A stretch of 64,000 bases of DNA. Origin: Mustelus asterias (taxonomy: Eukaryota). The notes beneath the pieces are model-generated. The model had not been told where the DNA came from and did no database searches. It worked only from the letters and a program-made list of their open reading frames with translations. The number at the start of each line of letters is the position of its first letter. Positions within the stretch are counted from its first letter, which is position 1. The translations under genes were made by a program, and so were the position numbers. Below, in pieces: positions 1-63,509 of this stretch. The DNA is taken from positions 124,001-188,000 of the forward strand of contig NW_027590179.1 of NCBI RefSeq assembly GCF_964213995.1, written 5' to 3'.

Positions 1-438
1 AGGGAGAGTGTGTGGGATGGAGATTCACAGCTTTTGGGGAATGAGAGAGAAAGAATGTTCCATAGAAACGAGAATTGTCTGTTCTGAATTTCTGTCCTGT
101 ACTGACACTGATGACTTTTGTAAACTCATTTTACAGGATATTAAAAGAGGAATCACAGACCGAAATCTCAAACGTCACATCAGATCTGACAGAGTCATAT
201 TCCTTGGGAGCTGAATATCATCGGCCTTTGAATCCAGAAGGACAAATGATTGTCCGGTCTGTCGATTTGAAAGGATTTCAAATGTCAGTGTGACTGGAAA
301 AGGACCAACACGCTGCCACGCTCGGGTGAGGGTGTTAAAGAGCTTTAACCAGTTACACAGCCTGAATAAAGATCACACCATTAACAGCGGGGAGAGACTG
401 CACTCGTGTTGTGTGTGTGTTAACGAGGCTTCAACTGA

Positions 439-1483
439 TTGTCCACCAAAGAGAGAGGCAAGGACACATGCACCATGGAGAAACCATGGAAATGTGGGGA
501 CTGTGGGAAGAGATACAGATCCCCATCAGAGCTGGAAGTTCATCGGCGCAGTCACACTGGAGCGAGGCCATTCGCCTGTTCTCAGTGTGGGAAGGGATTC
601 AGTGAAATATCCCACCTGCGGACACACCAGCGAGTTCACACTGGGGAGAGGCCGTTCACCTGCTCTCTGTGGGAAGGGATTCAGTCAGTTATCCAGCCTG
701 CAGACACACCAGCGAGTTCACACTGGGGAGAGGCCGTTCACTTGCTCTCAGTGTGGGAAAGGATTCAGTCAATTATCCAACTTGCAGACACACCAACGAG
801 TTCACACTGGGGAGAGACCGTTCACTTGCTCTCAGTGTGGGAAGGGATTCAGTCAGTTATCCAACCTGCGCAAACACCAGCGAGTTTGCACTGGGGAAAG
901 GCCATTCACCTGCTCTCAGTGTGAGAAGGAATTCACTCATTTATCCAGCCTGCAGACACACCAGCGAGTTCACACTGGGGAGAGGCCATTCACCTGCCCT
1001 CAGTATGGGGAGGGATTCACTCAATCATCCAACCTGCAGACACACCAGCGAGTTCACACTGGGGAGAAACCATTCACTTGCTCTCAGTGTGGGAAGGGAG
1101 TCACTCAGTTATCGAGTCTGCGGACACACCTGCGAGTTCACACTGGGGAGAGACCATTCACCTGCTCTCAGTGTGGGAAGGGATTCAGTGATTCATCCAG
1201 CCTGCGGAGACATGAGCGAGTTCACACTGGGGAGAGGCCGTTCACCTGCTCTCAGTGTGGGAAGGAATTCACTCAGTTATCCAATCTGCGGACACACGAG
1301 CGTATTCACACTGGGGAGAAACCGTTCACCTGCTCTCAGTGTGGGAAGGGATTCACTGACTTATCCAACCTGTGCACACACCAGCGAGTTCACACTGGGG
1401 AGAGGCCGTTCACCTGCTCTCAGTGTGGAAAGGGTTTCAGAGTTTCAGCCCAGCTGCTGAGACACCAACAAGTTCACGAGTGA
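439..1483 (+). pseudogene. Tandem C2H2 zinc-finger gene (12 fingers), frameshifted
   Basis: ORF 439-924 gives fingers 1-2 and ORF 290-1483 gives the rest, with TGERPF linkers. The frames join at 667/668, where TGCTCTC(AG)TGTGGG lacks 2 nt. Finger 5 ends HxxxC and finger 7 has C>Y. Candidate splice acceptor ttttacag at 129-136. Confidence 0.9.
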
Positions 1484-12776: not shown

Positions 12777-13495
12777 AGTATAAAGACAGGCATACGTGAA
12801 ACTGTAACTGAACTAGAGGAAATAGCGCACATTGCACACCATCTTTTTAACATCGTTGTTCAGAGTAAAGAATTAGGGAAAGCCTCTCAGACAGATGAGG
12901 AAATCGAGAATCAGTGTGGATCTGCTGGACTTCCTGCAGATGAACGAGATTTAGGCGCCAGAATGTTTCACTCGCAGAGTAAAGAGGGATCAAGTATAAC
13001 TAACAGATAATTCTTAAATCTCTTCCCTTTAAAGATATCTGATTTTGTTTAAAAGCTGACTGTCTCAAATAAGCACCATGGGATGTGTATTACCCAGTGA
13101 CTCGATTTCTTTTGTTGGTCAGTCATGCTTGCAATTCAATGTTGTATATTTCAGAGATATTCAGTTCAAAATGAGGTGATATGTAATTAATAAAAATATA
13201 TTAATATTAAACGTTGAAAAGCAAACAAGCACTGGGTGGAGCTGGTTAAAATTATTCGAAGGAAGATGAGAATGATGCATTAATGATTGAGCAGAAATCA
13301 TTGCTCCTTAGATGTTTGCTGGACGACCACTTTTAAATGTTGAAGTTGAAGATAAGTTGAGAAATCAAGTTGAAAGAAATGTTTTTTGTCTTGTATTAAT
13401 TGACATGGGCTCTCAGTGTAACCATTAGAACCTGCAGCAACACAGTGGGGGTGAACATTGCGGTCAGGCCAATTGGTGGCGCTATGTTGTCAGTT

Positions 13496-13568
13496 GTTCC
13501 TGTAGTGTAGTGGTTATCACGTTCGCCTAACACGCGAAAGGTCCCCGGTTCGAAACCGGGCAGAAACA
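13496..13568 (+). tRNA. tRNA-Val(AAC)
   Basis: Matches canonical vertebrate Val-AAC in the D, anticodon and T arms. One acceptor-stem mismatch (C4:A69). Confidence 0.9.
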
Positions 13569-14327
13569 TTAATTTACTCATTCATTGTGAGAGTAGTTTT
13601 GCATGGTTTCAGTTTTTGCTGCACCTCTTCCGAATCTCGATGTTGCAGCCATATTATCTTTGCTCTAAACTCGGCCACAAATGCTCTCAGCAAAATCAGA
13701 AATGCTGTAGTTTAAGACGCAATGAGGAAATAAATGTGTGTATTTGGACACCGTGCGCATATCAGCAACTTGTTCAAACCACAAGAGAATTTAATGGTTT
13801 TATAAATGCAGACTAACATAGTTAATCACCATCTGAAACATGTCAAATAGTATTGTGTGCTCATAAAGACAGACACAAGTGAAACTGTAAATGAACTAGA
13901 GGAAATGGCAGACATTGTCCAGAAGCATCTTTTTGAAATTGTTCTTCATAATAAAGAAATAGGAAAAAGCACTCAGGCAGATGAAGAAATCGAGACTCAG
14001 TGTAGATCTGCTGGACTTTCCTATAGATGAACGGGATTTAAGCACCAGAATATTTCACACGCAGAATAAAGAGGGATCAAGTATAACTGACAGATCATTC
14101 TTAAATCTCTTCCCTTTAAAGATATCTGATTTTGTTTAAAAGCTGACTGTCTCAAATAAGCACCATGGGATGTGTATTACCCAGTGACTCAATTTCTTTT
14201 ATTGGTCAGTCATGTTTGCAATTCAATGTTTCATATTCCCGAGATATTCAATTCAGAATGAAGACGTATGTATTAAATACATGTATTAATATTTAATATC
14301 GAATAACGAAACAAATATTGAGTAACC

Positions 14328-17232: not shown

Positions 17233-19017
17233 CATAGAAGATAGAACATTACAGCGCAGTACAGGCCCTTTGGTCCTCGATGTTGCGCCGACCAGTGAAA
17301 CCAATCTAAAGCCCATCTAACCTACACTATTCCAATATCATCCATATGTTTATCCAATGACCATTTAAATGCCCTTAATGTTGGCGAGTCCCCTACTGCT
17401 GCAGGCAGGGCACTCCACGCCCTTACTACTCTCTGAGTGAAGAACCTACCTCTGACATCAGTCCTAAATCTATCACCCCTCAATTTAAAGCTATGTCCCC
17501 GCGTGCTAGCCAACACCATCCGAGGAAAAAGGCTCTCACTATCCACCCTATCTAATCCTCTGGTCATCTTGTATGCCTCTTAACCGTCTTCTCTCTAATG
17601 AAAACAACCTCAAGTCCCTCAGCCTTTCCTCATAAGACCTTTCCACCATACCAGGCAACATCCGAGTAAATCTCCTCTGCACCCTTTCCAATGCTTCCAC
17701 ATCCTTCCTATAATGCGGCGACCAGAACTGCATGCAATACTCCAAGTGTGGCCGCACCAGAGTTTTATACGGCTGCAACATGACCTCCTGGCTCCGAAAC
17801 TCAATCCCTCTACCAATAAAAGCTAACACTCCGTACGCCTTCTTAACAACACTATCAACCTGGGTGCCAACTTTCAGGGATCTATGCACATGGATACCGA
17901 GATCTCTCTGTTCATCCACACTACCAAGTATCTTACCATTAGCCCAGTACTCTGTAATCCTGTTACTCCTTCCAAAGTGAATCACCTCACACTTTTCCGC
18001 ATTGAACTCAATTTGCCACCTCTCAGCCCAGCACTGCAGCTTATCTATGTCCCTCTGTAACCTGCAACAACTTTCCGCACTGTCCACAACTCCACCGACT
18101 TTAGTGTCATCCGCAAATTTACTAACCCATCCTTCCAAGCCTTCATCCAAGTCATTAATAAAAATGACAAACAGCAGAGGCCCCAAAACAAATCCTTGCG
18201 GTACACCACTAGTAACTGAACTCCAAGGTGAACATTTCCTATCAACCACCACCCTCTGTCTTCTTACAGCGAGCCAATTCCTGATCCTAACCGCTAAATC
18301 ACCCTCAATCCCATGCCTCCATATCTTCTGCAATAGCTTACCGTGAGGAACCTTACCAAACGCTTTACTGAAATCCATATACGCCACATCAACTGCTTTA
18401 CCCGTATCCACCTCTTTGGTCACCTTCTCAAAGAACTCAATAAGGTTTGTGAGGCACGACCTACCCTTCAGAAAACCGTGTTGACTATCTCTAATCAAAT
18501 TATTCCTTTCTAGATGATTATAAATCCTATCTCTTCTAATCCTTTCCAAAACTTTGCCCACAACAGAAGTAAGGCTCACTGGTCTATAATTACCAAGGTT
18601 GTCTCTACTCCCCTTCTTGTACAAGCGGACAACGTTTGCTATCCTCCATTCTTCTGGCACTATTCCTGTAGACAATGACGACATAAAGATCAAAACCAAA
18701 GACTCTGCAATCTCCTCCCGAGCCTCCCAGAGAATCCTGGGATAAATCCCATCCGGCCCAGGGGACTTATCTATTTTCACACTTTCCAGAATTCCTAACA
18801 CCTCCTCCTTATGAACCTCAATCCCGTCTAGTCCAATAGCCTGTATCTCAGTATTCTCCTTGACAACACTGTCTTTTTCCTGCGTGAATACTGACGAAGA
18901 ATATTAAGTTAGCGCCTTTCCTATCTCTTCAGGCTCCACGCACAACTTCCTACTACTTGTCCTTGACTGGCCCTAATCTTACCCTAGTCATTCTTTTATT
19001 CCTGAAATACCTATAGA
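17233..19017 (-). mobile_element. CR1 LINE, 5'-truncated
   Basis: 417-aa RT ORF 17548-18801. TSD AATTGTA at 17226 and 19018. Confidence 0.95.
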
Positions 19018-19550: not shown

Positions 19551-19816
19551 TGGTCGGTGCATACTCCATGGGCCGAATGGCCTCCTTTTGCACTGTATAG
19601 TTTCTATGATTCGATGAAGTTTTGGGAACCGGAGTTCGAATTCTAACACGACAGATTAACTCAATTCAAGGGCAATTAGGGATGCCTGTAAATGAGTAAA
19701 GAAAATACTATCTGTGCAACTTTTCCTCACTTAAACGAATAGGTTTTGAGAAAGTTTGCACCCGATTTTGAAAGGTCGGACCAATATGTAAACATTGCTA
19801 TATCTTGCACGTGTGT

Positions 19817-19889
19817 GGGCCAGTGGCGCAATGAATAACGCATCTAGCTACGGATTAGAAGAGTCCAGATTCGACTCCTGGCTGACACA
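19817..19889 (+). pseudogene. tRNA-Arg(ACG) pseudogene
   Basis: GGGCCAGTGGCGCAATGAATAACGC..CTACGGA..GATTCGACTCCTGGC with multiple stem-breaking substitutions. Confidence 0.85.
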
Positions 19890-20299
19890 TGGGCACTTTT
19901 CAACAACAGTTCATTAACTCCACGTTAGTTTCGATGAACAAAACGTGTTTTCAGTAACTTTAAACAAATGTTGGCCAAATACAGTAAGCTTCGATGAAGA
20001 AAGTTTTCCTGGGTGATTGTTTTTTTAAAGTTGACTATTTTAAGAAAAGTTCCACTCAAAAACTTTCATCAATTACTTTTAAACTAGTTTCTTTAAATGA
20101 CGAATTCCCCTTAAATTGTGGTTGGTGCTGACTTGGTAGGCCGAATGGCCTCCTTCTACACTGCACGGGTTCTCTGGATTCTCTGGATTCATCGCAGTAA
20201 CCGGCTCGTGAGACCGCATCTGCAGCAGTGAAATCTGCAGAAATTTAGAAATATCGAACGTTAAGTTGATATTGTAACTAATAGCGTCAGGGAACGGAT

Positions 20300-21550: not shown

Positions 21551-21640
21551 GGGCTCGTCCACGATTTGAACCCAGGACCCCTTGCATGCTCATCAACTGA
21601 AATTCCCTAAGCGCGAATCAGACCCCTGCACCAACGAAAC
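21551..21640 (-). pseudogene. tRNA-Pro(AGG)-derived gene with 18-nt insert at position 37/38
   Basis: Two 36-nt halves align without gaps to vertebrate Pro-AGG. Insert at 21587-21604. Confidence 0.85.
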
Positions 21641-21800
21641 TGATGTGGAGATGCCGGCGTTGGACTGGGGTAAGCACAGTAAGAAGTCTCACAACACCAG
21701 GTTAAAGTCCAACAGGTTTATTTGGTAGCAAATACCATAAGCTTTCGGAGCACAGCTCCTTCGTCAGATGGAGTGGATATCTGTTCTCAAACAGTGCACA
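21641..21800 (-). mobile_element. Penelope-like terminal repeat
   Basis: Contains a hammerhead core followed by AATAAA on the minus strand. Same family as 12626. Confidence 0.75.
21735..21771 (-). ncRNA. Minimal type I hammerhead ribozyme
   Basis: CCAT-CTGACGA-A-GGAGC(TGT)GCTCC-GAA-AGCT-T-ATGG: intact core, perfect stems I and II, palindromic stem III. Confidence 0.75.
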
Positions 21801-22374
21801 GAAACTGCACATAAGCAAGCATTAAAATATAACTCATTTATCTTTCTCCAAAGCAGTTCTGACACCTCCAGTGAAAGACAAAATTGTTGAAAAAACTCAC
21901 CGCATCAGCATTTGTGGACTTAAAGCTCCAGCGAAATATCCGCTCAATATTGTTACCTCGACTGTCTGCAGCTGGGGGCTTTTGTTTATAAAGTGCACAC
22001 GTTACAGTCAATATTTTAACCCAGCAACTTCAACATGTGTCAACTCTGAGTCTGCCTTTGATATTTGATCACTTTTGAAAGGTGTGGTCTGTCACACAGT
22101 TAACTGCTCTGGAACAATTAAAGTACAGATTGATGACCTTGTTCACCTGGGAGATCTGCGGGTTTGTGTGAATGGAATCGGGGATCGATTGGACTGATCT
22201 GATAGTAATATGAGTAAAAATATGTCAAATTTCTCAACAGTGACAATCATTAACCTCAGTGAGGGAAAACGCTCAGACGGGGCTGTATTGTCACGTTCAC
22301 TATGTTTAAATTTTATCTGATTTTTAACCCCATGTGTTGTCCTGACAATGAATCATTGATTATCGACCTGTGCC

Positions 22375-22413
22375 AGATTTTGTATGAGGTCCGCGGGAGC
22401 CTCATTCACTGTG
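22375..22413 (-). other. 23-RSS of V-B
   Basis: CACAGTG, 23 bp spacer, ACAAAATCT. Confidence 0.9.
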
Positions 22414-22890
22414 ACTCTCAGTGCACAGTAATACACGGCGCTGTCTGTCACCTTCAAATCTTGCATGGGCAAGTGAAAAGTGCTTTGTTTCAGGTTGAGA
22501 TTCCCGCTGAAGTGTTCAAAACCTGGAGCCGTATCGGTAAATTAGCGGCTCTGAGCAGTTAATGAGGAGTTCGGTGTGTATACTGGCGATACCAGAACAG
22601 GTAATGTTGTATAGTTGAACTCGGTACCGAGTAACTGCCGGGTATTGCTGAATCTTCACCCTCTGCTGCTTCAACTCCTGGTTCTGACTGGGACACTGAG
22701 TTACCGTTACTCATGTCTGAAAATAGGCAACAGACACGCAGCGGGTTAGAAGGAGTAACAACAACGGGATAATCGTCTCGAGATGGAAATGGGGAATGAA
22801 TATGGTGACTGGCGGATTTCACGCAGAAGTTCAAAATGACAGACCTGTAATCAGGACAATAACCAGAGTGAGACAGAGTTTCACCCCCAT
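22414..22890 (-). pseudogene. TCR-type V segment B, paralogue of A (leader 22845-22890, V exon 22414-22716)
   Basis: Leader MGVKLCLTLVIVLIT with phase-1 GT. First Cys>Gly, stop at 22559-22561, CDR2 frameshift. Ends DSAVYYCALR. Confidence 0.9.
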
Positions 22891-23644
22891 GGTTCGAGTT
22901 TGAACACCAGGAACAGAGCGACTGATCACTGTCTGCATCAGATCTGTAATTGGCGAAGTTGAAACAGTCAGGGGGATGTTATGAGATCGAAGGTGACTCC
23001 ATCTCTCCGCCCATTTTTACATCTTCAAACAGACCCCTCCTTTCGAAGGGAATCGTGATCTTTCATAAGTGATCAGAGACCGCCCTCCCGTGGACAGCAC
23101 AGCCGCATATTGGGAACAGGTACACACACGGCAACCTGCAAAGACTGACACATCTGGAGACCATAGAATCATAGAACCCCTACAGTACAGAAGGAGACCA
23201 TTCGGCCCAGCGAATCTGTACCGACCACAATTCCACCGAGGCCCTATTCCCGTAACCGCACACACAATCTCCCTGACACTAGGGGTCAATTTAGCATGGC
23301 CAATCCACCTAATCCGCACATCTTTGGTCTGTTGGAGGAAACCACAGCACCCGAGGTATCCCAGCAGACATGGGAGAACAGATACACACACGGTCACGTG
23401 GAAAGACCAACACGAATAAGGATATATAACCATATAGATATATGCCCAGGCAGTGACATCAATTCTAACGTCCCTCTTTATAACTCCAGAATTATTCTGC
23501 AGATTTCTGACAACTATTAGTTTGCGTTGCTAACCATGATAATGCATGAATACTTCCACCTCCGTGTTCACTGGAAGCCTCGGATACTGCACAGAATCAA
23601 CACAGAGACAAGTAAACTAAGTGATAGATTCCCAAACCAATTGA

Positions 23645-27055: not shown

Positions 27056-28239
27056 TTCGTTAAGCTTTCTCATGTAAGATGAGGGAAATCCTGTATGATT
27101 TCAGTTCGTTGCTGAACATTATCCGAATCTCGATATTACAGCAATATTAACTTTGCTCTGACCTCAACCTCAAATAGTTTCTGTGAATAAGAAATGCTGA
27201 TTTTCTTTTGACGCACTGACAGGAAAGAAACGTCTCTATTTTGACAACATGCACATAGTATCATCTTGTTCAGTGTACAACAGAATTTAATGGGTTTATA
27301 GGTGCAAACTAAAATAGCGAATCACCATCTGAAAAATGTCTAATAGGAGTGTGTGCTCAAAAAGACAGACACAAGTGATACTCGAAGTGAACGAGAGGAA
27401 ATGGCGCACATTTCCCAGAAGAATCTTCTTTTTAAAATCATGCTTCATAACATGGAAATCGGATAAAAAACACTCAGACAAATGAGGAAATGGAGACTCA
27501 GTGCGGATCAACTAGACTTTCCTATAGGTGGCCGGAATTTATGCGCCTGAGTGTTTCACATTTATAATAAAAAAGGCTCAAGTATACCTAACAGATATTT
27601 CTTCAATCACTTCCATTTAATTATAGTTGACTTTGTTTAAAAGCTGACGATGGCCAATCTCAAACAAACACCATGGGATCTGTATTACCCGGTGACTCGA
27701 CTCTTTTCGTTGGGCAGTTATGTTTGCAATTCAGTGATATTCAATTTCAGAGATATTCAATTCATAATGAAGACATCTGAGTTCAACAATGTATTGGTAT
27801 TAAATATTGAAACAGATACTGAGTACAATTGTACAATGAGCTTTGACAAAATGTCATCTGGATTCCAAACGTCAGCTCTTTTCTCTCCTTACAGATGCTA
27901 CCAGACCTTGTGAGATTTTCCAGCATTTTCTCCTTTGGTTTCAGATTCCATCATTCGCAGTAATTTGCTTTTATTAATGAGCACAATTGGTTGAGATTAT
28001 TCGAAGGAAGATGAAAATAATGCACTAATGAATGAGTAGAATTCAATGTTGCTTTGATATTTGCAAAACGCTTGCTTTCAAATTTTGAAGTTCAAGATAA
28101 GTTGAGCAATCATATTGACATTAACGGTTATCTTCCTGAAACAAGGGACATGGCCTCTCAGTCGAACCATTTGAAACTGCAGCAACACAACGCAGTTGAA
28201 CATTGCAGAGAGGCGGATTTGCTGTCATTGCTGTCACCT

Positions 28240-28312
28240 GTTTCTGTAGTGTAGTGGTTATCACGTTCACCTCACACGCGAAAGTTTCCCAGTTCAAAAC
28301 CAGGCAGAAATA
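28240..28312 (+). pseudogene. tRNA-Val(CAC), probable pseudogene
   Basis: A and B boxes largely retained, but anticodon-stem and T-stem mismatches. Confidence 0.8.
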
Positions 28313-28360
28313 TTCATTAAGTTTTCTAATTTAGGGTGAGGAAATCTGTATGATTTCAGT

Positions 28361-29130: not shown

Positions 29131-30260
29131 CTTCGTTGCTGAACATTATCCGAATCTTGATGTTGCAGCCAGATGATCTTTGCTCTGACCTCGGCCTCAA
29201 ATGATTTCTGTAAAATAAAAATGTTGATAGCTTTTTGACGAACTGACAGGAAAGAAACATTTCGATTTTGAACTGTGCACGTATTCGCATCACGTTCAGT
29301 CTACAACAGAATGTAATGAGTTTGTGGGCGCAGATTAACGTAGCTAATCACCATCTGGAACTTTTCGAATAGTAGTATGTGCTCCAGGGGACTGACACAA
29401 GTGATACTGGAAGTGAAGTATAGGAAATGGCGCACATTTCCCAGAAGAATCTTTTTTTAAAATCGTTCTTCAAAACAAAGAATTAGGGAAAAAAAACACT
29501 CAGACAGATGCGGAAATCGAGACTCGGTGCAGATCTACTGGACTTTCATTTAAATGGCCGGAATTTATGTGCCTGAATGTTTCACGCCCAGAATAAAAGA
29601 GACTCAAGTGTCAATAACATATAATTCTTCAATCTCATCTATTTAAATGTAGTTCACTTTGTTTAAATGTAGTTCGCTGTGGTCAATCTCATAATTGTGA
29701 TCTGTATTACCCGGTGACTCGATTCCTGTTGGTCAGTTATATTTGCAATTCTATGATGTTCAATTCCAGAGATATTCAATTCATAATGAAGACAGATGTG
29801 TTAAATAATGCATTGATACTAAATATTGAAACAAATACTGAGTGCAATTGTGCAATGAACTTTGTTAAAGTGTCACCTGGACTCGGGACGTCAGCTCCTT
29901 TCTCTCCTTACAGGTGCTATCAGACGTTGTGAGATTTTCCAGCATTTTCTCTTTTGCTTTCCGATTCCAGTATCCGCAGTAATTTGCTTTTATCGCTGAG
30001 AATAATTGTTTGAGATTATTCGAAGGAAGATGAGAATGATGCATTAATGAATGGCCAGAAACCATTGTTTTCTTAGATATTTGCCAGACGATCGCTTTTA
30101 AATTTTGATGTTCAAGATAAGTTGAGCAATCAGGTTGAAAGTAACGGTTATCTTCCTGAATTAAGTGACATGGGCTCTCAGTCCAACCATTGGAACCTGC
30201 AGCAAGACAGCGCAGTTGAACATTGCAGTCAAACAGATTCGCTATCGCGCATTTTCAGCT

Positions 30261-30333
30261 GTTTCTGTAGTGTAGTGGTCATCACATTCACCTAACGCGC
30301 GGAAAGACCATGGTTCGAAACCGGGCAGAAACA
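30261..30333 (+). pseudogene. tRNA-Val(AAC), probable pseudogene
   Basis: Intact acceptor stem and B box. Anticodon and T stems broken. Confidence 0.8.
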
Positions 30334-31139
30334 TTCGTTACACTTTCGTATGTCAGGTGAGGGGAACATTGCTTGTTTTCAGTTTGTTGCTCAACATTAT
30401 CAGAACCTCGACATTACCGCCATGTTAATATTGCTCTGATGTCGGCCTCAAATGTTTTCTGTAAAATAAGAGATGCTGTTCTTTTTTTCGATGCACTGAC
30501 AGGTAAGAAATGTTTCGATTTTGACACCGTGCACACATTCGCATCTCATTCAGTCTGCAACAGAATTTAATGGGTTTATAGGTGCAGACTAACATGGTTA
30601 ATCACCATCTGAAACATATCTGATAGTAGTGTGTGCTCCAGAAGACTGACACAAGTGGTATTCTCAGTGACCTATAGGACATGGTGCACATTTCCCAGAA
30701 GATTTTGCAGCATTTTCTCTTTTGGTGTCAGATTCCAGCATCCTCAGTAATTTGCTTTTATTAATGAGCACATTTCGCTGAGAATTTTCGATGGAAGATG
30801 AGAATGGATGCATTAATGAATGAGCAGAAATCATTGGCCCCGTAGATATTTGCCAAACGAACTCTTTTAAATTTTGAAGTTCAAGATAAGTTGAGCCATC
30901 AGATTGAAAGTAACGGTTATCTTCCTGAATTAACATGGGCTCTCAGTCTAACCATTGGAACCTGCAACAACAACATTGCCGACAGGCCGATTTGCTGCAT
31001 TCTGCTGTCAGTTGTTTCTGTAATATCACGTTGGCTGATATTGGGTGACATGGGTTCTCAGTCTAATAATTGGAACCTGCAGCAACACAGCGCAGTTAAC
31101 ATTGCAGACAGGCAGATTTGTTGGACACTGCTGCTTGCT

Positions 31140-31211
31140 GTTTTGTAGTGTAGGAATTATCACGTTTGCCTCACACGCGAAAAGTCCCAGGTTCGAAACC
31201 AGGCCGAAATA
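31140..31211 (+). pseudogene. tRNA-Val(CAC) pseudogene
   Basis: D-loop GG lost. Preceded by a partial duplicate of the 5' flank at about 30935-31030. Confidence 0.8.
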
Positions 31212-31944
31212 TTCATTAAGATTTCTCATGTAGGGTGAGGGAAATCTGTCTGATTTCAGTTCGTTGCTGAACATTGTATCTGAATCTTGATGTGACAGCC
31301 ATATTATTTTTGCTCTGACCTGGGCCTGAAATGCTTTCTGTAAAATATGAAATGCTTTCTGTAAAATATGAAATGCTGATATGTTTTGATGCACTGACAA
31401 GAAAGAAACGTTTCGACTTTGACAACGTGCACATATTCGCATCTCGTTCAGTCTACAACAGAACTTAATGTTTTATAGGTGCAGAATGACATAATCGTCA
31501 TCTGGAACAGTTCTAATAGTAGTGTGTGCTCAAAAAGACAGACACAAGTGATACTGTAAGTAAACTAGAGGAAATGGCGCACATTTCCCAGAAGATTTTT
31601 TATATCGTTCTTCATAGCAAAAAATAGGGAAAACCACTCAGACAGATGAGGAAATCGAGACTCAGTGCGGGTCTACTGTAATTTCCTGGAGGTGGTGGAA
31701 TTCGTGCGCCTGAATGTTTCGCGCCCATAATAAAAAAGACTCAAGTGTAACTGAGAGATAATTCTTCAATCCCTTCCATTTAACTGTGGTTGACTTTGTT
31801 TAAAAGCTGACTATGGTCAATCTCAAAATTGTGATCTGTATTACCCGGTGACTCGATTCCTTCTGTTGGTCAGTTATGTTTACAATTCAGTGATATTCAA
31901 TTTCAGAGATATTCAATTCATAATGAAAACATATGTGTCAAATA

Positions 31945-35341: not shown

Positions 35342-37624
35342 AAGAACAAAGAACAAAGAACAGTACAGCACAGGAAACAGGCCCTTCGGCCCTCCAAGCC
35401 TGTGCCGCTCCTTGGTCCAACTAGACCAATCGTTTGTATCCCTCCATTCCCAGGCTGCTCATGTGACTATCCAGGTAAGTCTTAAACGATGTCAGCGTGC
35501 CTGCCTCCACCACCCTACTTGGAAGCGCATTCCAGGCCCCCACCACCCTCTGTGTAAAAAACGTCCCTCTGATGTCTGAGTTATACTTCGCCCCTCTCAG
35601 CTTGAGCCCGTGACCCCTCGTGATCGTCACCTCCGACCTGGGAAAAAGCTTCCCACTGTTCACCCTATCTATACCCTTCATAATCTTGTATACCTCTATT
35701 AGATCTCCCCTCATTCTCCGTCTTTCCAAGGAGAACAACCCCAGTCTACCCAATCTCTCCTCATAGCTAAGACCCTCCATACCAGGCAACATCCTGGTAA
35801 ACCTTCTCTGCACTCTCTCCAATGCCTCCACGTCCTTCTGGTAGTGCGGCGACCAGAACTGGACGCAGTACTCCAAATGCGGCCTAACCAGCGTTCTATA
35901 CAGCTGCATCATCAGACTCCAGCTTTTATAGTCTATACCCCGTCCTATAAAGGCAAGCATACCATATGCCTTCTTCACCACCTTCTCCACCTGTGTTGCC
36001 ACCTTCAAGGATTTGTGGACTTGCACACCTAGGTCCCTCTGTGTTTCTATACTCCTGATGACTCTGCCATTTATTGCATAACTCCTCCCTACATTATTTC
36101 TTCCAAAATGCATCACTTCGCATTTATCCGGATTAAATTCCATCTGCCACCTCTCCGCCCAATTTTCCAGCCTATCTATATCCTGCTGTATTGCCCGACA
36201 ATGCTCTTCGCTATCCGCAATTCCAGCCATCTTTGTGTCATCCGCAAACTTGCTGATTACACCAGTTACACCTTCTTCCAAATCATTTATATATATCACA
36301 AATAGCAGAGGTCCCAGTACAGAGCCCTGCGGAACACCACTGGTCACAGACCTCCAGCCGGAAAAAGACCCTTCGACCACTACCCTCTGTCTCCTATGGC
36401 CAAGCCAGTTCTCCACCCATCGAGCCACTTCTCCTTGTATCCCATGAGCCTTAACCTTCTTAACCAACCTGCCATGTGGGACTTTGTCAAATGCCTTACT
36501 GAAATCCATATAGACGACATCCACGGCCCTTCCTTCATCAACCGTTTTTGTCACTTCCTCAAAAAACTCCACCAAATTTGTAAGGCACGACCTCCCTCTT
36601 ACAAAACCATGCTGTCTGTCACTAATGAGATTGTTCCGTTCTAAATGCACATACATCCTGTCTCTAAGAATCCTCTCCAACAACTTCCCTACCACGGACG
36701 TCAAGCTCACCGGCCTATAATTTCCTGGGTTATCCCTGCTACCCTTCTTAAACAACGGGACCACATTCGCTATCCTCCAATCCTCAGGGACCTCACCCGT
36801 GTCCAAAGAAGCGACAAAGATTTCCGTCAGAGGCCCAGCAATTTCCTCTCTCGTCTCCCTGAGCAGTCGAGGATAGATGCCATCAGGCCCTGGGGCTTTG
36901 TCAGTTTTAATGTTCCCTAAAAAACCTAACACTTCCTCTCTCGTAATGGAGATTTTCTCTAACGGGTCAACACCTCCCTCCGAGACACTCCCGGTTAACA
37001 CGCCCCTCTCCTTCGTGAATACCGATGCAAAGTATTCATTTAGGATCTCCCCTATTCCCTTGGGTTCTAAGCATAATTCCCCTCCTTTGTCCCTGAGAGG
37101 TCCGATTTTCTCCCTGACAACTCTTTTGTTCCTAACGTATGAATAGAATGCCTTAGGATTCTCCTTAATCCTGCCTGCCAAGAACATCTCGTGCCCTCTT
37201 TTTGCCCTTCTAACTCCCCGTTTGAGATCTTTCCTACTCTCTCTGTATTCCTCCAGAGCTCCATCTGTTTTCAGTTGCCTGGACTTAACGTACGCCTCCC
37301 TTTTCATTTTAATCAGATCCTCAATTTCCCTGGTTATCCACGGCTCTCGAATCCTACCTTTCCTATCTTTCCTTTTTACAGGCACATGCCTATCCTGCAG
37401 CCTTATCAATAGTTCCTTAAAAGACTCCCACATGCCAGACGCGGACTTACCCTCGAACATCCTCTCCCATCAACATCCACCAATTCCTGCCTAATCCGGC
37501 TGTAGTCAGCCTTCCCCCAATTTAGCACCCTGCCCGTAGGACAGCACTCATCCTTGTCCATTACTATCCTAAAGTTAACAGAGTTGTGGTCACTATTTGC
37601 CACATGTTCCCCTACCGAAACTTT
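35342..37624 (-). mobile_element. Young CR1 LINE with a 679-aa uninterrupted RT ORF
   Basis: ORF 35421-37460 with SKFADDTK, (TTCTTTG)n tail, 5'-truncated in the endonuclease. Confidence 0.97.
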
Positions 37625-41945: not shown

Positions 41946-44727
41946 TCAAAATTTCAACAAATTAACAAATAATTTCAGTGGATAATTCACTCCATTCTTT
42001 AACTCGGCTCTGAATTTCCTCTGGGTCCCAGCATAAATAAACGGGTTGATGCAGGAACTCAGAAACTGTAGCATATATCCGCTTTCCTCCAAGATAAATG
42101 ACCATTCACTAATATCAGCAACAGAAAAATAAGGAACCTTTGCAATTCGGACATAGAGTATCGTCACAAAAAATAACGTATATAAGAGGATGAAACTGCC
42201 CGGGATGGCAAAGAGTAAAATAATGGACTTTCTCCGCTTCTCCATCTCTGGGTCACTCTGTTTTTCTCCATTACTCTGTGACCGGAGTCTCCTGCGGGCC
42301 CGATTAGCCGCGAGAATGTGTCTGACGGTCAGAGCATTGAACAATAAAATCAGAATGAATGGGATACAGGGCATTGAAATTGTTCGAAACAAATCATAGG
42401 CGTTCCATATTGGGGATGTATAAAAAATTTGTTTTACAATACAGAACCAAGGTATGTTATTAATTATATGCAGCGGTTCAAATATAAAATACAGGAAGGA
42501 CGTTTTTAGAGAGCTCAATGCGCAGACGGTCCCTATCACCCACGCCGCTGTCTTCTCCGTGCAGTATTTGATTTTCAGCTTCTGGCAGCAAATGGCCACA
42601 AATCGATCAAAGGTGAAAGCAACCGTTAACCAGGCAGAACTGTCAATGGTTGCGTAGATTATCACATTTTGCAGACTGCATATTGGTGTGATTGACAGGA
42701 AACTGCCGGGGAAATAAATCCCAGCAGTCCGGCTTAATATCACGCTGGTGATAATGACCAAGAGATCCGTCACCGCCATGGAGACTACATAGTAAATTAT
42801 ACATCTGGAGAGACCACAGCTTCTTCGGTATAGGATTAAAATGACTGCCAAGTTAGCTGTAAAGTATAGAAGGAAAGGGAACATATGGGTGACAGCAGGA
42901 GAGACAAGATGTTACTTTCTCAACTCCCATCGAAATGATACAAGATTATGCAGGAAATTGAAACTTTTGCGATTTGATTCTGCTTTGCCAACTGTCCCTT
43001 GTTCGGGTTCCCATGCACATAATCACAAGAATTATAAATAAGCTGGGTCAGTGACATTGAATTGCATCATAATGCAACACAATATAATGAAAGATAAGAA
43101 AATGTTGAAAAATCATAAATGCACCTCCAGGCATAGTCAACAACTTATTACAGGCACGTTGGATATGAAATTATAAAAAGCATTAATTGCCATATTCAAC
43201 TGGAAAGTTTCCATCTCGCTCAATTTCAAAAGTTGCCCCATTTGGCGAATTATTCTTAAACTATTCGCTGTTGGAAATGCCTGCATCAAACCAAAATATA
43301 AATCTTCAATCAAAAAAGTAGGGAGCAATTCGCGTTTCTATGAATTTACAGAGGAAATGTTGAAAGGAGCTCCTAACCTGAAATTGTGGGTGTAACATGC
43401 AATACTGGAAATGGCAGATGTAAATGACGCAATTGGAGAGAGTGTTGCTCTCATTGCAGGAGTTAATGAACAAATCTGACCCGAAGTGGATATTTGAAGG
43501 TAATTATCAGATTAAGAGCTCGCAAGCAGTACTGGGTCCTTTCAACATGTCTTCTGAAATTTCAGAGAGAGGCAAGCAACTGACCATAGGCATTTCCAAA
43601 ATCATTTATATTCCATGCAAAATATGCAGTCAGTTACCGTGCCTGGGTCAACATAATCAAAGCAATCAGAAAATAATGGGGAGAAATGGTGACTTGTGCA
43701 ATGAGAGTCGAGGGTCGAGACGGAGACGGGTGGACCAATTTCTCACCAAAGAGCCGCTATTGCAATCCTCCTATACTGTCAAAAGCCCGTTGACACCAAA
43801 GGTCTGTCAATAAAATCTTTCATTATGTTCAGATAGCAATTATTTGTCCGACTCAATCCATTACTCTCAATTTCAACAACAAGAAAAATATCTGGAATTA
43901 TACCGTGATAACGTTGTGGTAATTCGTCCCTGGAACAGGGAGAATACGATAACATATTTACATGTACAGGGAGGTGACAATGTGATAATTCAAGCACAAC
44001 AATGACACTGATAATACAAAAGTTACACGTTTCCACTGCAATAACTATAACTTCCAATAGCAGCAACAATAATTCTGCAGAAATGGATTTATGCTGTGTT
44101 ATCCGAGGGAAAATTCGTATTAGTTCATGTGTCATTGTCGTAATCGAACTACATGTACAGTATAATAACTTTGAAGTAACCCATCTACAATAGCATTGCT
44201 AAGAAAAATATAACTGCATTTCTAAATTGAATTTGCAGTGATAAATGGCAAGGTGGGACAGGTGAGGGGGGACAAAAGTGTGGCACAGGTCAGAGGCAGG
44301 CAGAACACAGTTGAATGGGAGACATTATAATTTGAATACCTTTTTCTGTTCTTTGAGTGAAATGACACTGCTTAAAACGGCAATATTCACCATTGATTCA
44401 GATAAATTGTGCTAACAGATTCAAGGTATTATCTCATTAAAATGAAGAATAAAGCTCTTAAAATTAATAAAGTGACCCTGTAAAAGAGGACAATAAGCAT
44501 CAGTCTACCAGAAGAATCTATATATTTTAGGGGAAAATTCATTGCTTTAAATGATAGAAATGAATTCCGTGTCTTAGAGGTGCGCTAGTAATAAAATTGA
44601 AAAAGGTTACAGCTGAACAAAGACATTACATGTTAATAACTAACTACCACACTGTACCTGGAACTCCAATAGCTGCAATGACGGGATAGTAAATGGCAAA
44701 CACCAGCCCTTTTGGAGGTGCATGCAT
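41946..44727 (-). CDS. GPR139/GPR142-like class A orphan GPCR, two exons (44658-44727, 41946-42856), 326 aa
   Basis: Exon 1 MHAPPKGLVFAIYYPVIAAIGVP with a phase-1 GT..AG intron joins ANLAVILIL. Motifs MAVTDLL, FTFDRFVAIC and INPFIY. Seven hydrophobic segments, no stops. Confidence 0.9.
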
Positions 44728-62385: not shown

Positions 62386-62398
62386 CCTAAAGCATCTG

Positions 62399-62493
62399 CG
62401 CCTCAGATGAGGCTCGAATTTACAACCTGGGCATAGCCCGCAGGCCGCACTGCTGTATAAACACCATGCGCTAACCGATTGCGCCACTACGGC
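62399..62493 (-). pseudogene. tRNA-Ile(TAT) with 21-nt intron (62435-62455), probably inactive
   Basis: AGTGGCGCAATCGGTTAGCGC..TTATA[cagcagt..]ATGCC.AGGTTGT..TTCGAGCCTCA with acceptor and T-stem mismatches. Confidence 0.85.
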
Positions 62494-63435: not shown

Positions 63436-63456
63436 GTCTCTGTGGTGCAATTGGTC

Positions 63457-63489
<33 letters not shown>

Positions 63490-63509
63490 GTCCAGACCAC
63501 CCAGGGACG
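63436..63509 (+). pseudogene. tRNA-Asn(GTT) with mutated T loop
   Basis: Canonical stems, but the T loop is GTCCAGA instead of TTCGAGC. Confidence 0.85.

What the first reader, a model, noticed from the sequence alone, without database searches (positions are those of the whole stretch)
21551..21640. tRNA-Pro(AGG) with an apparent canonical-position intron
Seen: 18 nt (AATTTCAGTTGATGAGCA) inserted exactly one base 3' of the anticodon, with no duplication of flanks. Removing it gives a gap-free 72-nt Pro-AGG. Known: vertebrate tRNA introns are essentially confined to Tyr-GTA, Ile-TAT, Leu-CAA and Arg-TCT. Inference: a decayed copy of an intron-containing tRNA-Pro family, implying intron gain or retention in this lineage.
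Basis: partly seen in the sequence, partly recalled or inferred. Interest (0 to 1): 0.7.

Follow-up and report, generated by a model that had tools for sequence, protein, structure and literature searches.

The report
Shark proline tRNA genes carry introns
The flagged gene is a broken copy, but it belongs to well over a hundred proline tRNA loci in this genome (likely a shark's) that carry a short insert at the standard tRNA-intron site, which is likely transcribed and cut out by the normal tRNA-splicing enzyme, in a tRNA type that reviews do not list among the intron-bearing families of humans.

Summary
Observation confirmed: window 21551-21640(-) is tRNA-Pro(AGG) with an 18-nt insert between positions 37 and 38. 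This copy is dead: 11 of 72 exon changes, broken stems, repeats inserted at both ends. The insert is not unique. An exact junction motif finds 177 insert-bearing Pro loci (AGG, TGG, CGG) against 10 without; Arg-TCG has 58 of 59, while Arg-ACG has 0 of 79. Inserts pair with positions 32-35 in the register of spliced tRNA introns (144 of 156 pairs; shuffles 73±6). In 30 paralogues picked by flank alone, exons diverge 1%, inserts and the 20 upstream bases 25%, the pattern published for active tRNA genes. Dispersed copies fused to a SINE at the terminator look like retrocopies of unspliced transcripts; one copy has an intron family's leader and trailer but no intron (a microhomology deletion could mimic this). 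No RNA data were examined, and gain versus retention is untested. [quoted passage not shown] This scan already noted the family in this and other genomes (unreviewed notes). New variant of a known kind.

The parts
21605..21640 (-). 5' exon of a tRNA-Pro(AGG) pseudogene (positions 1-37), 6 substitutions against the intronless gene
21587..21604 (-). 18-nt insert at the canonical 37/38 site; keeps the U32-G anticodon-intron pair and U33-A, G35-U, but not the pair at 34
21551..21586 (-). 3' exon, 5 substitutions; no T4 terminator run within 25 nt downstream
21643..21800 (.). 158-bp multi-copy repeat inserted into the first bases of the gene, with a 7-bp target-site duplication (21636-21642 and 21801-21807); present in all six near-identical copies, absent from the older paralogue L007. 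Resembles a Penelope-like terminal repeat (recalled, not tested; no Rfam match)
   Evidence: 155 blast hits in 1.46 Mb of fetched DNA, 88 of them >=120 nt; the fetched DNA holds overlapping loci
21805..23280 (-). native upstream flank of the intron-bearing Pro-AGG gene family, 90.5% identical to the flank of the intact gene L061
20878..21515 (.). multi-copy interspersed repeat (3' end of a LINE-like element; class recalled, not tested) inserted about 35-40 nt downstream of the gene

Best explanation
The window holds a dead copy of a large family of proline tRNA genes with a short insert at the 37/38 site; the intact members are likely transcribed by RNA polymerase III and likely spliced by the ordinary TSEN endonuclease and RtcB ligase into normal tRNA-Pro. 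Shown: position, length (11-19 nt, 70 of 92 are 18 nt), intact exons in many paralogues, anticodon-intron helix, isotype specificity, decay of this copy. Inferred: transcription (from divergence pattern and retrocopies), splicing (from the helix, exon conservation and one intron-lacking retrocopy), and origin by gain in the shark lineage followed by segmental amplification and anticodon switching, while a few solitary intronless genes persisted on large chromosomes.
For: Family size: 177 loci with a gap (first 100 listed, all three anticodons among them) vs 10 without or 27 with up to 2 mismatches. Specificity: Arg-ACG 0 of 79 with insert; Gly, Leu, Ser, iMet, Trp, Asp, Glu, Gln, Lys, Thr-CGT, Val, Asn genes in the same clusters have none; the known intron family Arg-TCT has 59 of 59, 18-19 nt. 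Helix: 39 distinct anticodon+intron pairs from 46 near-intact loci form 144 of 156 pairs at positions 32-35 against 73.4+-6.1 in shuffles (0 of 5000 reach it) and 52-84 in shifted registers; the A-I pair holds in 34 of 39; intron base -5 follows the wobble base (AGG: T 13 of 14; TGG: A/G 16 of 18; CGG: G 4 of 7); in Arg-TCG, where 32 is C, intron -3 is G in 9 of 9. This is the geometry described in PMC10275265 (passages). Selection and transcription: 30 paralogues picked on upstream flank only (30 of 40 scored, 179 candidates) all carry the insert; divergence from L061 is 1.0% in exons (21/2088), 3.0% in distal flank, 24.7% in the 20 upstream bases (143/580), 25.6% in introns (129/504), the profile of active tRNA genes in PMC6130373 (passages). 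Retrocopies: 15 of 28 insert-bearing Pro loci on contigs C1-C26 have a SINE head within 25 nt of the 3' end on the same strand (chance 0.3% each) vs 1 of 64 in cluster contigs; L304 shares an 11-nt leader, a near-identical intron and the trailer up to the T-run with the cluster gene L315. L038 lacks the intron yet has a 4-nt leader and 38 of 43 trailer bases of a family in which 22 of 22 full-length hits carry the 18-nt intron, and no further shared flank.
Against: No RNA reads, ChIP or cleavage data were examined. Paralogues are related: one search finds only four multi-member flank families plus singletons, so the helix and covariation counts stand for perhaps 4-6 independent events, and the shuffle figure is not a probability. 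The main CGG subfamily has U opposite U at the A-I position (5 of 7 distinct CGG introns). Only 25 of 46 near-intact loci have a T4 run within 25 nt. Many loci are degenerate (37 of 92 with 5 or more exon changes). The distal-flank figure is biased low because loci were the best flank matches; one search's exon figure is circular (filtered on exons). L038 is one event; intron and 3' exon both begin with TG, so a 2-nt microhomology deletion gives the same product, imprecise deletions across the intron occur in 2 other dispersed copies (L310, L311), and L038 lies 5.5 Mb from the intronless TGG genes, so conversion is possible. Many intronless retrocopy-like loci come from about seven intronless genes, which may be the main source of tRNA-Pro. 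Counts may be inflated by uncollapsed haplotypes in small contigs. Target-site duplications of the SINE chimeras were not tested.
Confidence: 0.85

Rival explanations
1. The insert-bearing loci are silent or unspliced passengers of segmental duplication; all working tRNA-Pro comes from the few intronless genes, and gene conversion keeps the exons alike.
For: Seven perfect intronless genes with immediate T-run terminators cover all three anticodons; they have left many retrocopy-like loci; many insert-bearing loci are decayed or lack a T4 run; U.U at the A-I site in the CGG subfamily.
Against: Conversion does not explain the in-register helix, the C32-G versus U32-A/G switch between Arg-TCG and Pro, the high divergence confined to the 20 upstream bases and intron, or dispersed copies that end at the terminator.
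Confidence: 0.1
2. The introns are real and spliced but old: retained from an ancestor and lost in bony vertebrates, rather than gained in sharks. (Rival on origin only; compatible with the main mechanism.)
For: [quoted passage not shown]
Against: Introns mutate fast even between close paralogues (25% at 3% flank divergence), so divergence does not imply age; perfect intronless genes of all three anticodons sit singly on large chromosomes; anticodon switching within one flank family (L098) lets one gain spread to all anticodons; the preprint describes intron-containing loci as expanded in sharks.
Confidence: 0.25
3. The unspliced RNA works as it is, as a tRNA-like molecule with a re-paired anticodon arm and long variable arm, or as the head of a SINE family.
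For: ARAGORN without intron search folds many of these genes as Lys-CTT or Gln-TTG with a long extra arm; about half of the dispersed copies are fused to a SINE.
Against: Insert length (11-19 nt) and sequence vary freely while exons stay identical to tRNA-Pro; each SINE-fused copy has a different intron and trailer, so they are one-off chimeras, not a family; cluster genes have no SINE tail (1 of 64).
Confidence: 0.03
4. The 18 nt are a one-off insertion in a pseudogene.
For: The window's exact intron variant was seen only in degenerate copies.
Against: 177 loci with an insert at the same site; intact paralogues sharing the window copy's flank.
Confidence: 0.01

Closest known systems
Vertebrate TSEN-spliced tRNA intron families Tyr-GUA, Ile-UAU, Arg-UCU, Leu-CAA (PMC10275265, passages; PMC10485636, passages)
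   Same: Position 37/38, short length, Y32-purine A-I pair, pairing of intron with the anticodon loop, variable intron sequence among paralogues, mix of intron-bearing and intronless genes. Arg-TCT in this genome has 18-19 nt introns in 59 of 59.
   Different: Isotypes: Pro (AGG, CGG, TGG) and Arg-TCG are not among the human families named in those passages; here they are the majority state with over a hundred loci.
[quoted passage not shown]
   Same: Very likely the same loci, found by tRNAscan-SE.
   Different: The text names no isotype, no intron structure and no evidence of activity; Figure 3A and the supplements could not be seen and may break the loci down.
Lineage-specific tRNA intron gains in yeasts, e.g. 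Lachancea thermotolerans Ala-UGC and Kluyveromyces lactis Gly-UCC (PMC4090602 section 18 part 1)
   Same: A new isotype acquires a canonical intron in one lineage; anticodon switching spreads introns.
   Different: Here it is a vertebrate, with intron-bearing and intronless genes of identical exons side by side, and massive amplification.
Chimeric retrocopies of small RNAs with LINE-1 (PMC13174262, passages)
   Same: Small RNA fused 5' of a retroelement, by template switch or RNA ligation.
   Different: Human tRNA/L1 chimeras are mostly antisense tRNA halves; here full-length, sense, unspliced pre-tRNAs with leader and trailer are fused to a SINE.

Membership tests
Canonical eukaryotic TSEN-spliced tRNA intron | Insert one base 3' of the anticodon (37/38) | tested here: met
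Canonical eukaryotic TSEN-spliced tRNA intron | Short, single intron | tested here: met
   11-19 nt in 92 Pro loci, 70 of them 18 nt; 16-22 nt in Arg-TCG
Canonical eukaryotic TSEN-spliced tRNA intron | A-I pair between Y32 and the third-last intron base | tested here: met
   34 of 39 distinct Pro introns (all 14 AGG, all 18 TGG, 2 of 7 CGG); 9 of 9 Arg-TCG. Not met in the main CGG subfamily (U.U).
Canonical eukaryotic TSEN-spliced tRNA intron | Anticodon-intron helix (bulge-helix-loop) | tested here: met
   144 of 156 pairs vs 73.4+-6.1 shuffled, 52-84 in shifted registers; sequences are related, so not independent
Canonical eukaryotic TSEN-spliced tRNA intron | Intact mature domain around the intron (paralogues) | tested here: met
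   18 zero-mismatch loci; 17 of 30 flank-picked; ARAGORN calls exon-joined L061, L069, L083 as Pro
Canonical eukaryotic TSEN-spliced tRNA intron | Transcribed by Pol III in vivo | tested here: inconclusive
   Indirect only: divergence profile, retrocopies ending at T-runs; no reads laid
Canonical eukaryotic TSEN-spliced tRNA intron | Cut by TSEN and ligated | not testable with these tools
   One suggestive intron-lacking retrocopy, L038, with a microhomology alternative
Functional tRNA-Pro gene (the window copy itself) | Intact cloverleaf and terminator | tested here: not met
   11 of 72 changes; broken pairs in acceptor (1), anticodon (2) and T (1) stems; fold energy -19.3 vs -30.2 kcal/mol; no T4 run; repeats at both ends
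The four intron-bearing tRNA families named for humans | Isotype is Tyr-GUA, Ile-UAU, Leu-CAA or Arg-UCU | tested here: not met
   Exons are identical to this genome's intronless Pro genes
Transposon-type insertion (for the 18 nt) | Target-site duplication or multi-copy element outside tRNA genes | tested here: not met
   No duplication at the insert ends; insert sequences differ between families. Some 1-mismatch hits of a 19-nt motif fall in an unrelated repeat without tRNA exons
Lineage-specific intron gain | Absent from outgroup orthologues | not testable with these tools
   No relatives are offered for this genome; human absence rests on review passages

The most novel reading that the evidence does not exclude
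Sharks gained new tRNA introns after splitting from bony vertebrates: a retroelement reverse transcriptase that jumps between unspliced pre-tRNAs (seen here as pre-tRNA/SINE chimeras and a Tyr-Pro-Arg-Thr concatemer) moved an intron, perhaps the 18-nt Arg-UCU intron, into tRNA-Pro and Arg-UCG genes; these then amplified and switched anticodons, so that most proline and CGA decoding capacity became dependent on TSEN, next to a few intronless genes that could serve particular tissues.
Probability: 0.2. Interest if true: 0.78.

Novelty: new variant of a known kind. Interest (0 to 1): 0.52.

Why it matters
The set of intron-bearing tRNA families in vertebrates is treated as four. A vertebrate lineage with four more anticodon classes, and with intron-bearing and intronless genes of identical exons in one genome, gives a natural experiment on why tRNA introns persist (modification, expression control, circular intron RNAs) and on how they are gained, a question the yeast literature leaves open. 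It names the loci likely behind the reported excess of intron-containing tRNAs in sharks. The CGG subfamily tests how strictly TSEN needs the A-I pair. It is also an annotation trap: without intron search these genes are called Lys, Gln or Leu.

Tried and rejected
Rfam and default ARAGORN miss the window copy; the three weak Rfam hits are chance. ARAGORN with a forced intron range was too noisy for a census; searches replaced it. G37 as the rule for which isotypes carry introns: rejected, since Arg-ACG (79 of 79) and Leu-AAG/CAG/TAG have G37 and no intron. Arg-CCG was not found with the motif used, so it is untested. An intact gene with the window's exact intron variant: none among 30 of 37 motif hits fetched. 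More intron-lacking copies with an intron-family trailer: only L038 among 22 intronless loci examined. A pile-up of 3'-exon-only fragments starting at position 38: three candidates (L275, L294 and an inverted duplicate beside L038), too few and not tested statistically. Arg-TCT as intron donor: shared 18-nt length and a similar last 5-6 bases, part of which pairing constraints explain; a lead only. Sequencing runs: one search listed two holders above half of the words and many small shares; no reads were laid, so they are no evidence. The D-stem indices in the script were out of register and are not used. Literature searches found no paper naming Pro or Arg-UCG introns in sharks or other vertebrates; PMC8450103, PMC10886601, PMC11417395 and PMC5499810 (passages) had nothing on it. 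GtRNAdb and the Schmidt and Matera 2020 review were not seen.

Full report
Observation. The minus strand of 21551-21640 reads as a tRNA-Pro(AGG) with 18 extra bases between positions 37 and 38. With the insert removed it aligns without gaps to this genome's own intronless Pro-AGG gene but differs at 11 of 72 positions, breaking one acceptor, two anticodon-stem and one T-stem pair; its fold energy is -19.3 against -30.2 kcal/mol. ARAGORN and Rfam do not call it. There is no T4 run within 25 nt downstream. A 158-bp repeat with a 7-bp target-site duplication sits in the first bases of the gene, and a LINE-like repeat begins about 35-40 nt downstream. Beyond the inserted repeat the upstream flank is 90.5% identical over 1478 nt to that of an intact insert-bearing gene, L061. 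So this copy is a dead DNA-level duplicate, itself present in six near-identical segmental copies.

The family. The genome (3.68 Gb; likely a shark, inferred from size, tRNA-gene abundance and recalled repeat types, not tested) has 177 exact matches to an anticodon-arm motif with a 10-22 nt gap at 37/38 (100 listed; control 0), against 10 for a slightly longer ungapped motif and 27 with up to two mismatches. AGG, TGG and CGG all occur in both states. In the DNA fetched up to there were 102 distinct Pro loci, 92 with an insert of 11-19 nt (70 of 18 nt); 18 have exons identical to the intronless gene, 46 have at most two changes, 37 have five or more. Small contigs may hold uncollapsed haplotypes, so these are locus counts in the assembly, not haploid gene numbers.

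Specificity. Arg-TCG has an insert at the same site in 58 of 59 loci. Arg-ACG, whose anticodon arm differs by one base and which lies in the same contigs, has none in 79 of 79. A census of 92 fetched loci, including 400 kb of contig C85, found Gly, Leu, Ser, initiator Met, Trp, Asp, Glu, Gln, Lys, Thr-CGT, Val and Asn genes without inserts. The known intron family Arg-TCT has 18-19 nt introns in 59 of 59. The inserts are therefore tied to particular tRNA families, as true tRNA introns are.

Splicing geometry. Eukaryotic introns pair with the anticodon loop, closed by an A-I pair between Y32 and the third-last intron base (PMC10275265, passages). In 39 distinct anticodon-plus-intron combinations from near-intact Pro loci, positions 32-35 form 144 of 156 pairs, against 73.4+-6.1 in 5000 shuffles (none reach it) and 52-84 in shifted registers. 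Intron base -5 tracks the wobble base (T opposite A34 in 13 of 14, A or G opposite U34 in 16 of 18, G opposite C34 in 4 of 7), and base -3 is G in 9 of 9 Arg-TCG introns, where 32 is C. Against: the sequences fall into four multi-member flank families plus singletons, so independent events are few; and the main CGG subfamily has U opposite U at the A-I site although the next pairs are in register.

Selection and transcription. To avoid picking on the tRNA itself I searched with 401 nt of L061's distal upstream flank and took 30 of the 40 scored hits (179 candidates). All 30 carry an insert-bearing Pro-AGG gene; 17 have perfect exons, 7 one change, 4 two, 2 three. Divergence from L061 is 1.0% in exons, 3.0% in distal flank (biased low by the selection), 24.7% in the 20 bases upstream and 25.6% in the intron. 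Conserved exons with hyper-divergent inner flank and intron are the mark of actively transcribed tRNA genes in PMC6130373 (passages). This is inference, not a measurement of RNA. Only 25 of 46 near-intact loci have a T4 run within 25 nt, though one family appears to end at a later TTTCTTT (L251, L038).

Retrocopies as fossil transcripts. On contigs C1-C26, 15 of 28 insert-bearing Pro loci have a SINE head within 25 nt of the 3' end on the same strand (background 0.3% per locus), against 1 of 64 in the cluster contigs. L304 shares an 11-nt leader, a near-identical intron and the trailer up to the T-run with cluster gene L315, then runs into the SINE. L049 strings together Tyr (with intron), Pro (with intron), Arg and Thr genes and a SINE. 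The simplest reading is reverse transcription of unspliced pre-tRNAs by template jump or RNA ligation, mechanisms discussed for LINE-1 chimeras in PMC13174262 (passages); target-site duplications were not tested. One copy, L038, lacks the intron exactly yet has the 4-nt leader and 38 of 43 trailer bases of a TGG family in which all 22 full-length hits of 24 carry the 18-nt intron; similarity stops at the trailer end, where an RT-like repeat begins. That fits a spliced but untrimmed transcript. It is one event among 22 intronless loci examined; a 2-nt TG microhomology could give the same product, two other dispersed copies show imprecise deletions, and intronless TGG genes lie 5.5 Mb away. It is suggestive only.

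Mechanism. Most likely (0.85): intact members are transcribed by Pol III, cut by TSEN at 37/38 with the help of the anticodon-intron helix, and ligated to ordinary tRNA-Pro; the window copy decayed after duplication. On origin I favour gain in the shark lineage (about 0.75) with amplification and anticodon switching (L098 holds a CGG gene in a TGG flank family with a TGG-type intron), but no outgroup genome could be searched.

What is known. Review passages name Tyr-GUA, Ile-UAU, Arg-UCU and Leu-CAA as the human intron families; gains in single lineages are described for yeasts (PMC4090602 section 18 part 1). [quoted passage not shown] Searches found no paper naming Pro or Arg-UCG introns in a vertebrate. 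Unreviewed notes of this scan describe the same families in this genome and in other probable shark genomes; I had reached my reading before looking, tested the claims for this genome myself, and could not test those for other genomes. A search of the notes for the pre-tRNA/SINE chimeras found nothing.

Verdict. Real feature; dead copy of a real and probably working family; a known kind of intron in tRNA families not listed for humans. New variant of a known kind, interest 0.52.

Noticed in passing
G000 C85, C102, C103, C130, C141, C155 and others; L117-L127: tRNA-Arg(TCG) genes carry a 16-22 nt insert at 37/38 in 58 of 59 motif matches; the single intronless gene is on C24 with a strong terminator.
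   Followed up: yes
L304, L047, L024, L028, L011, L191, L297 and others on C1-C26: Full-length unspliced pre-tRNA-Pro copies with short leader and trailer are fused in sense to a SINE head; several have a repeated 5' fragment of the tRNA upstream, as from repeated template jumps.
   Followed up: partly
L049:1364-1742 (C14): Concatemer of Tyr (with intron), Pro (with intron), Arg-ACG-type and Thr-TGT tRNA copies followed by a SINE.
   Followed up: partly
C3 128-147 Mb, C4 147-148 Mb, C10 112-121 Mb, C17 70.9-72.2 Mb: 25 of 27 intronless Pro junction matches lie within about 15 Mb of an intact intronless gene, and many share only its short leader and trailer: retrocopies seem to land near their source gene.
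   Followed up: partly
L038:800-1153: Inverted duplicate (about 96% identical) of the 3' exon, trailer and adjoining repeat, beginning exactly at position 38; L294 and L275 also hold 3' exons starting at about 38.
   Followed up: partly
L079, L083, L085, L101, L103 (C85, C102, C103): Pro-CGG subfamily with U opposite U at the A-I site but an in-register helix next to it, and a one-base D-loop variant that could mark its spliced product.
   Followed up: partly
L053, L054 (C19:64.52 Mb): Two divergent, near-perfect intron-bearing Pro-AGG genes 1.7 kb apart on a large chromosome, each with an immediate T4 terminator and unrelated introns; candidates for old founder loci.
   Followed up: no
window 62398-62493 (-): Degenerate tRNA-Ile(TAT)-like gene with an intron of about 19-20 nt, a known intron family (isotype recalled).
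   Followed up: no
window 13495-13569, 19816-19890, 28239-28313, 30260-30334, 31139-31212, 63436-63509: Intronless Val (4), Arg-ACG and Asn tRNA genes, most with broken pairs.
   Followed up: no
window 215-1483 (+), 41946-42911 (-), 17548-18903 (-), 35421-37469 (-): C2H2 zinc-finger array, a single-frame rhodopsin-family GPCR, and two reverse-transcriptase frames.
   Followed up: no
C85: Pro and Arg genes recur with a period of about 650 kb, i.e. very large tandem segmental duplications of a tRNA cluster.
   Followed up: no
L083, L085, L078, L129, L156 (C85): Leu-TAG genes built on a Leu-CAG-type body (anticodon switch), degenerate.
   Followed up: no
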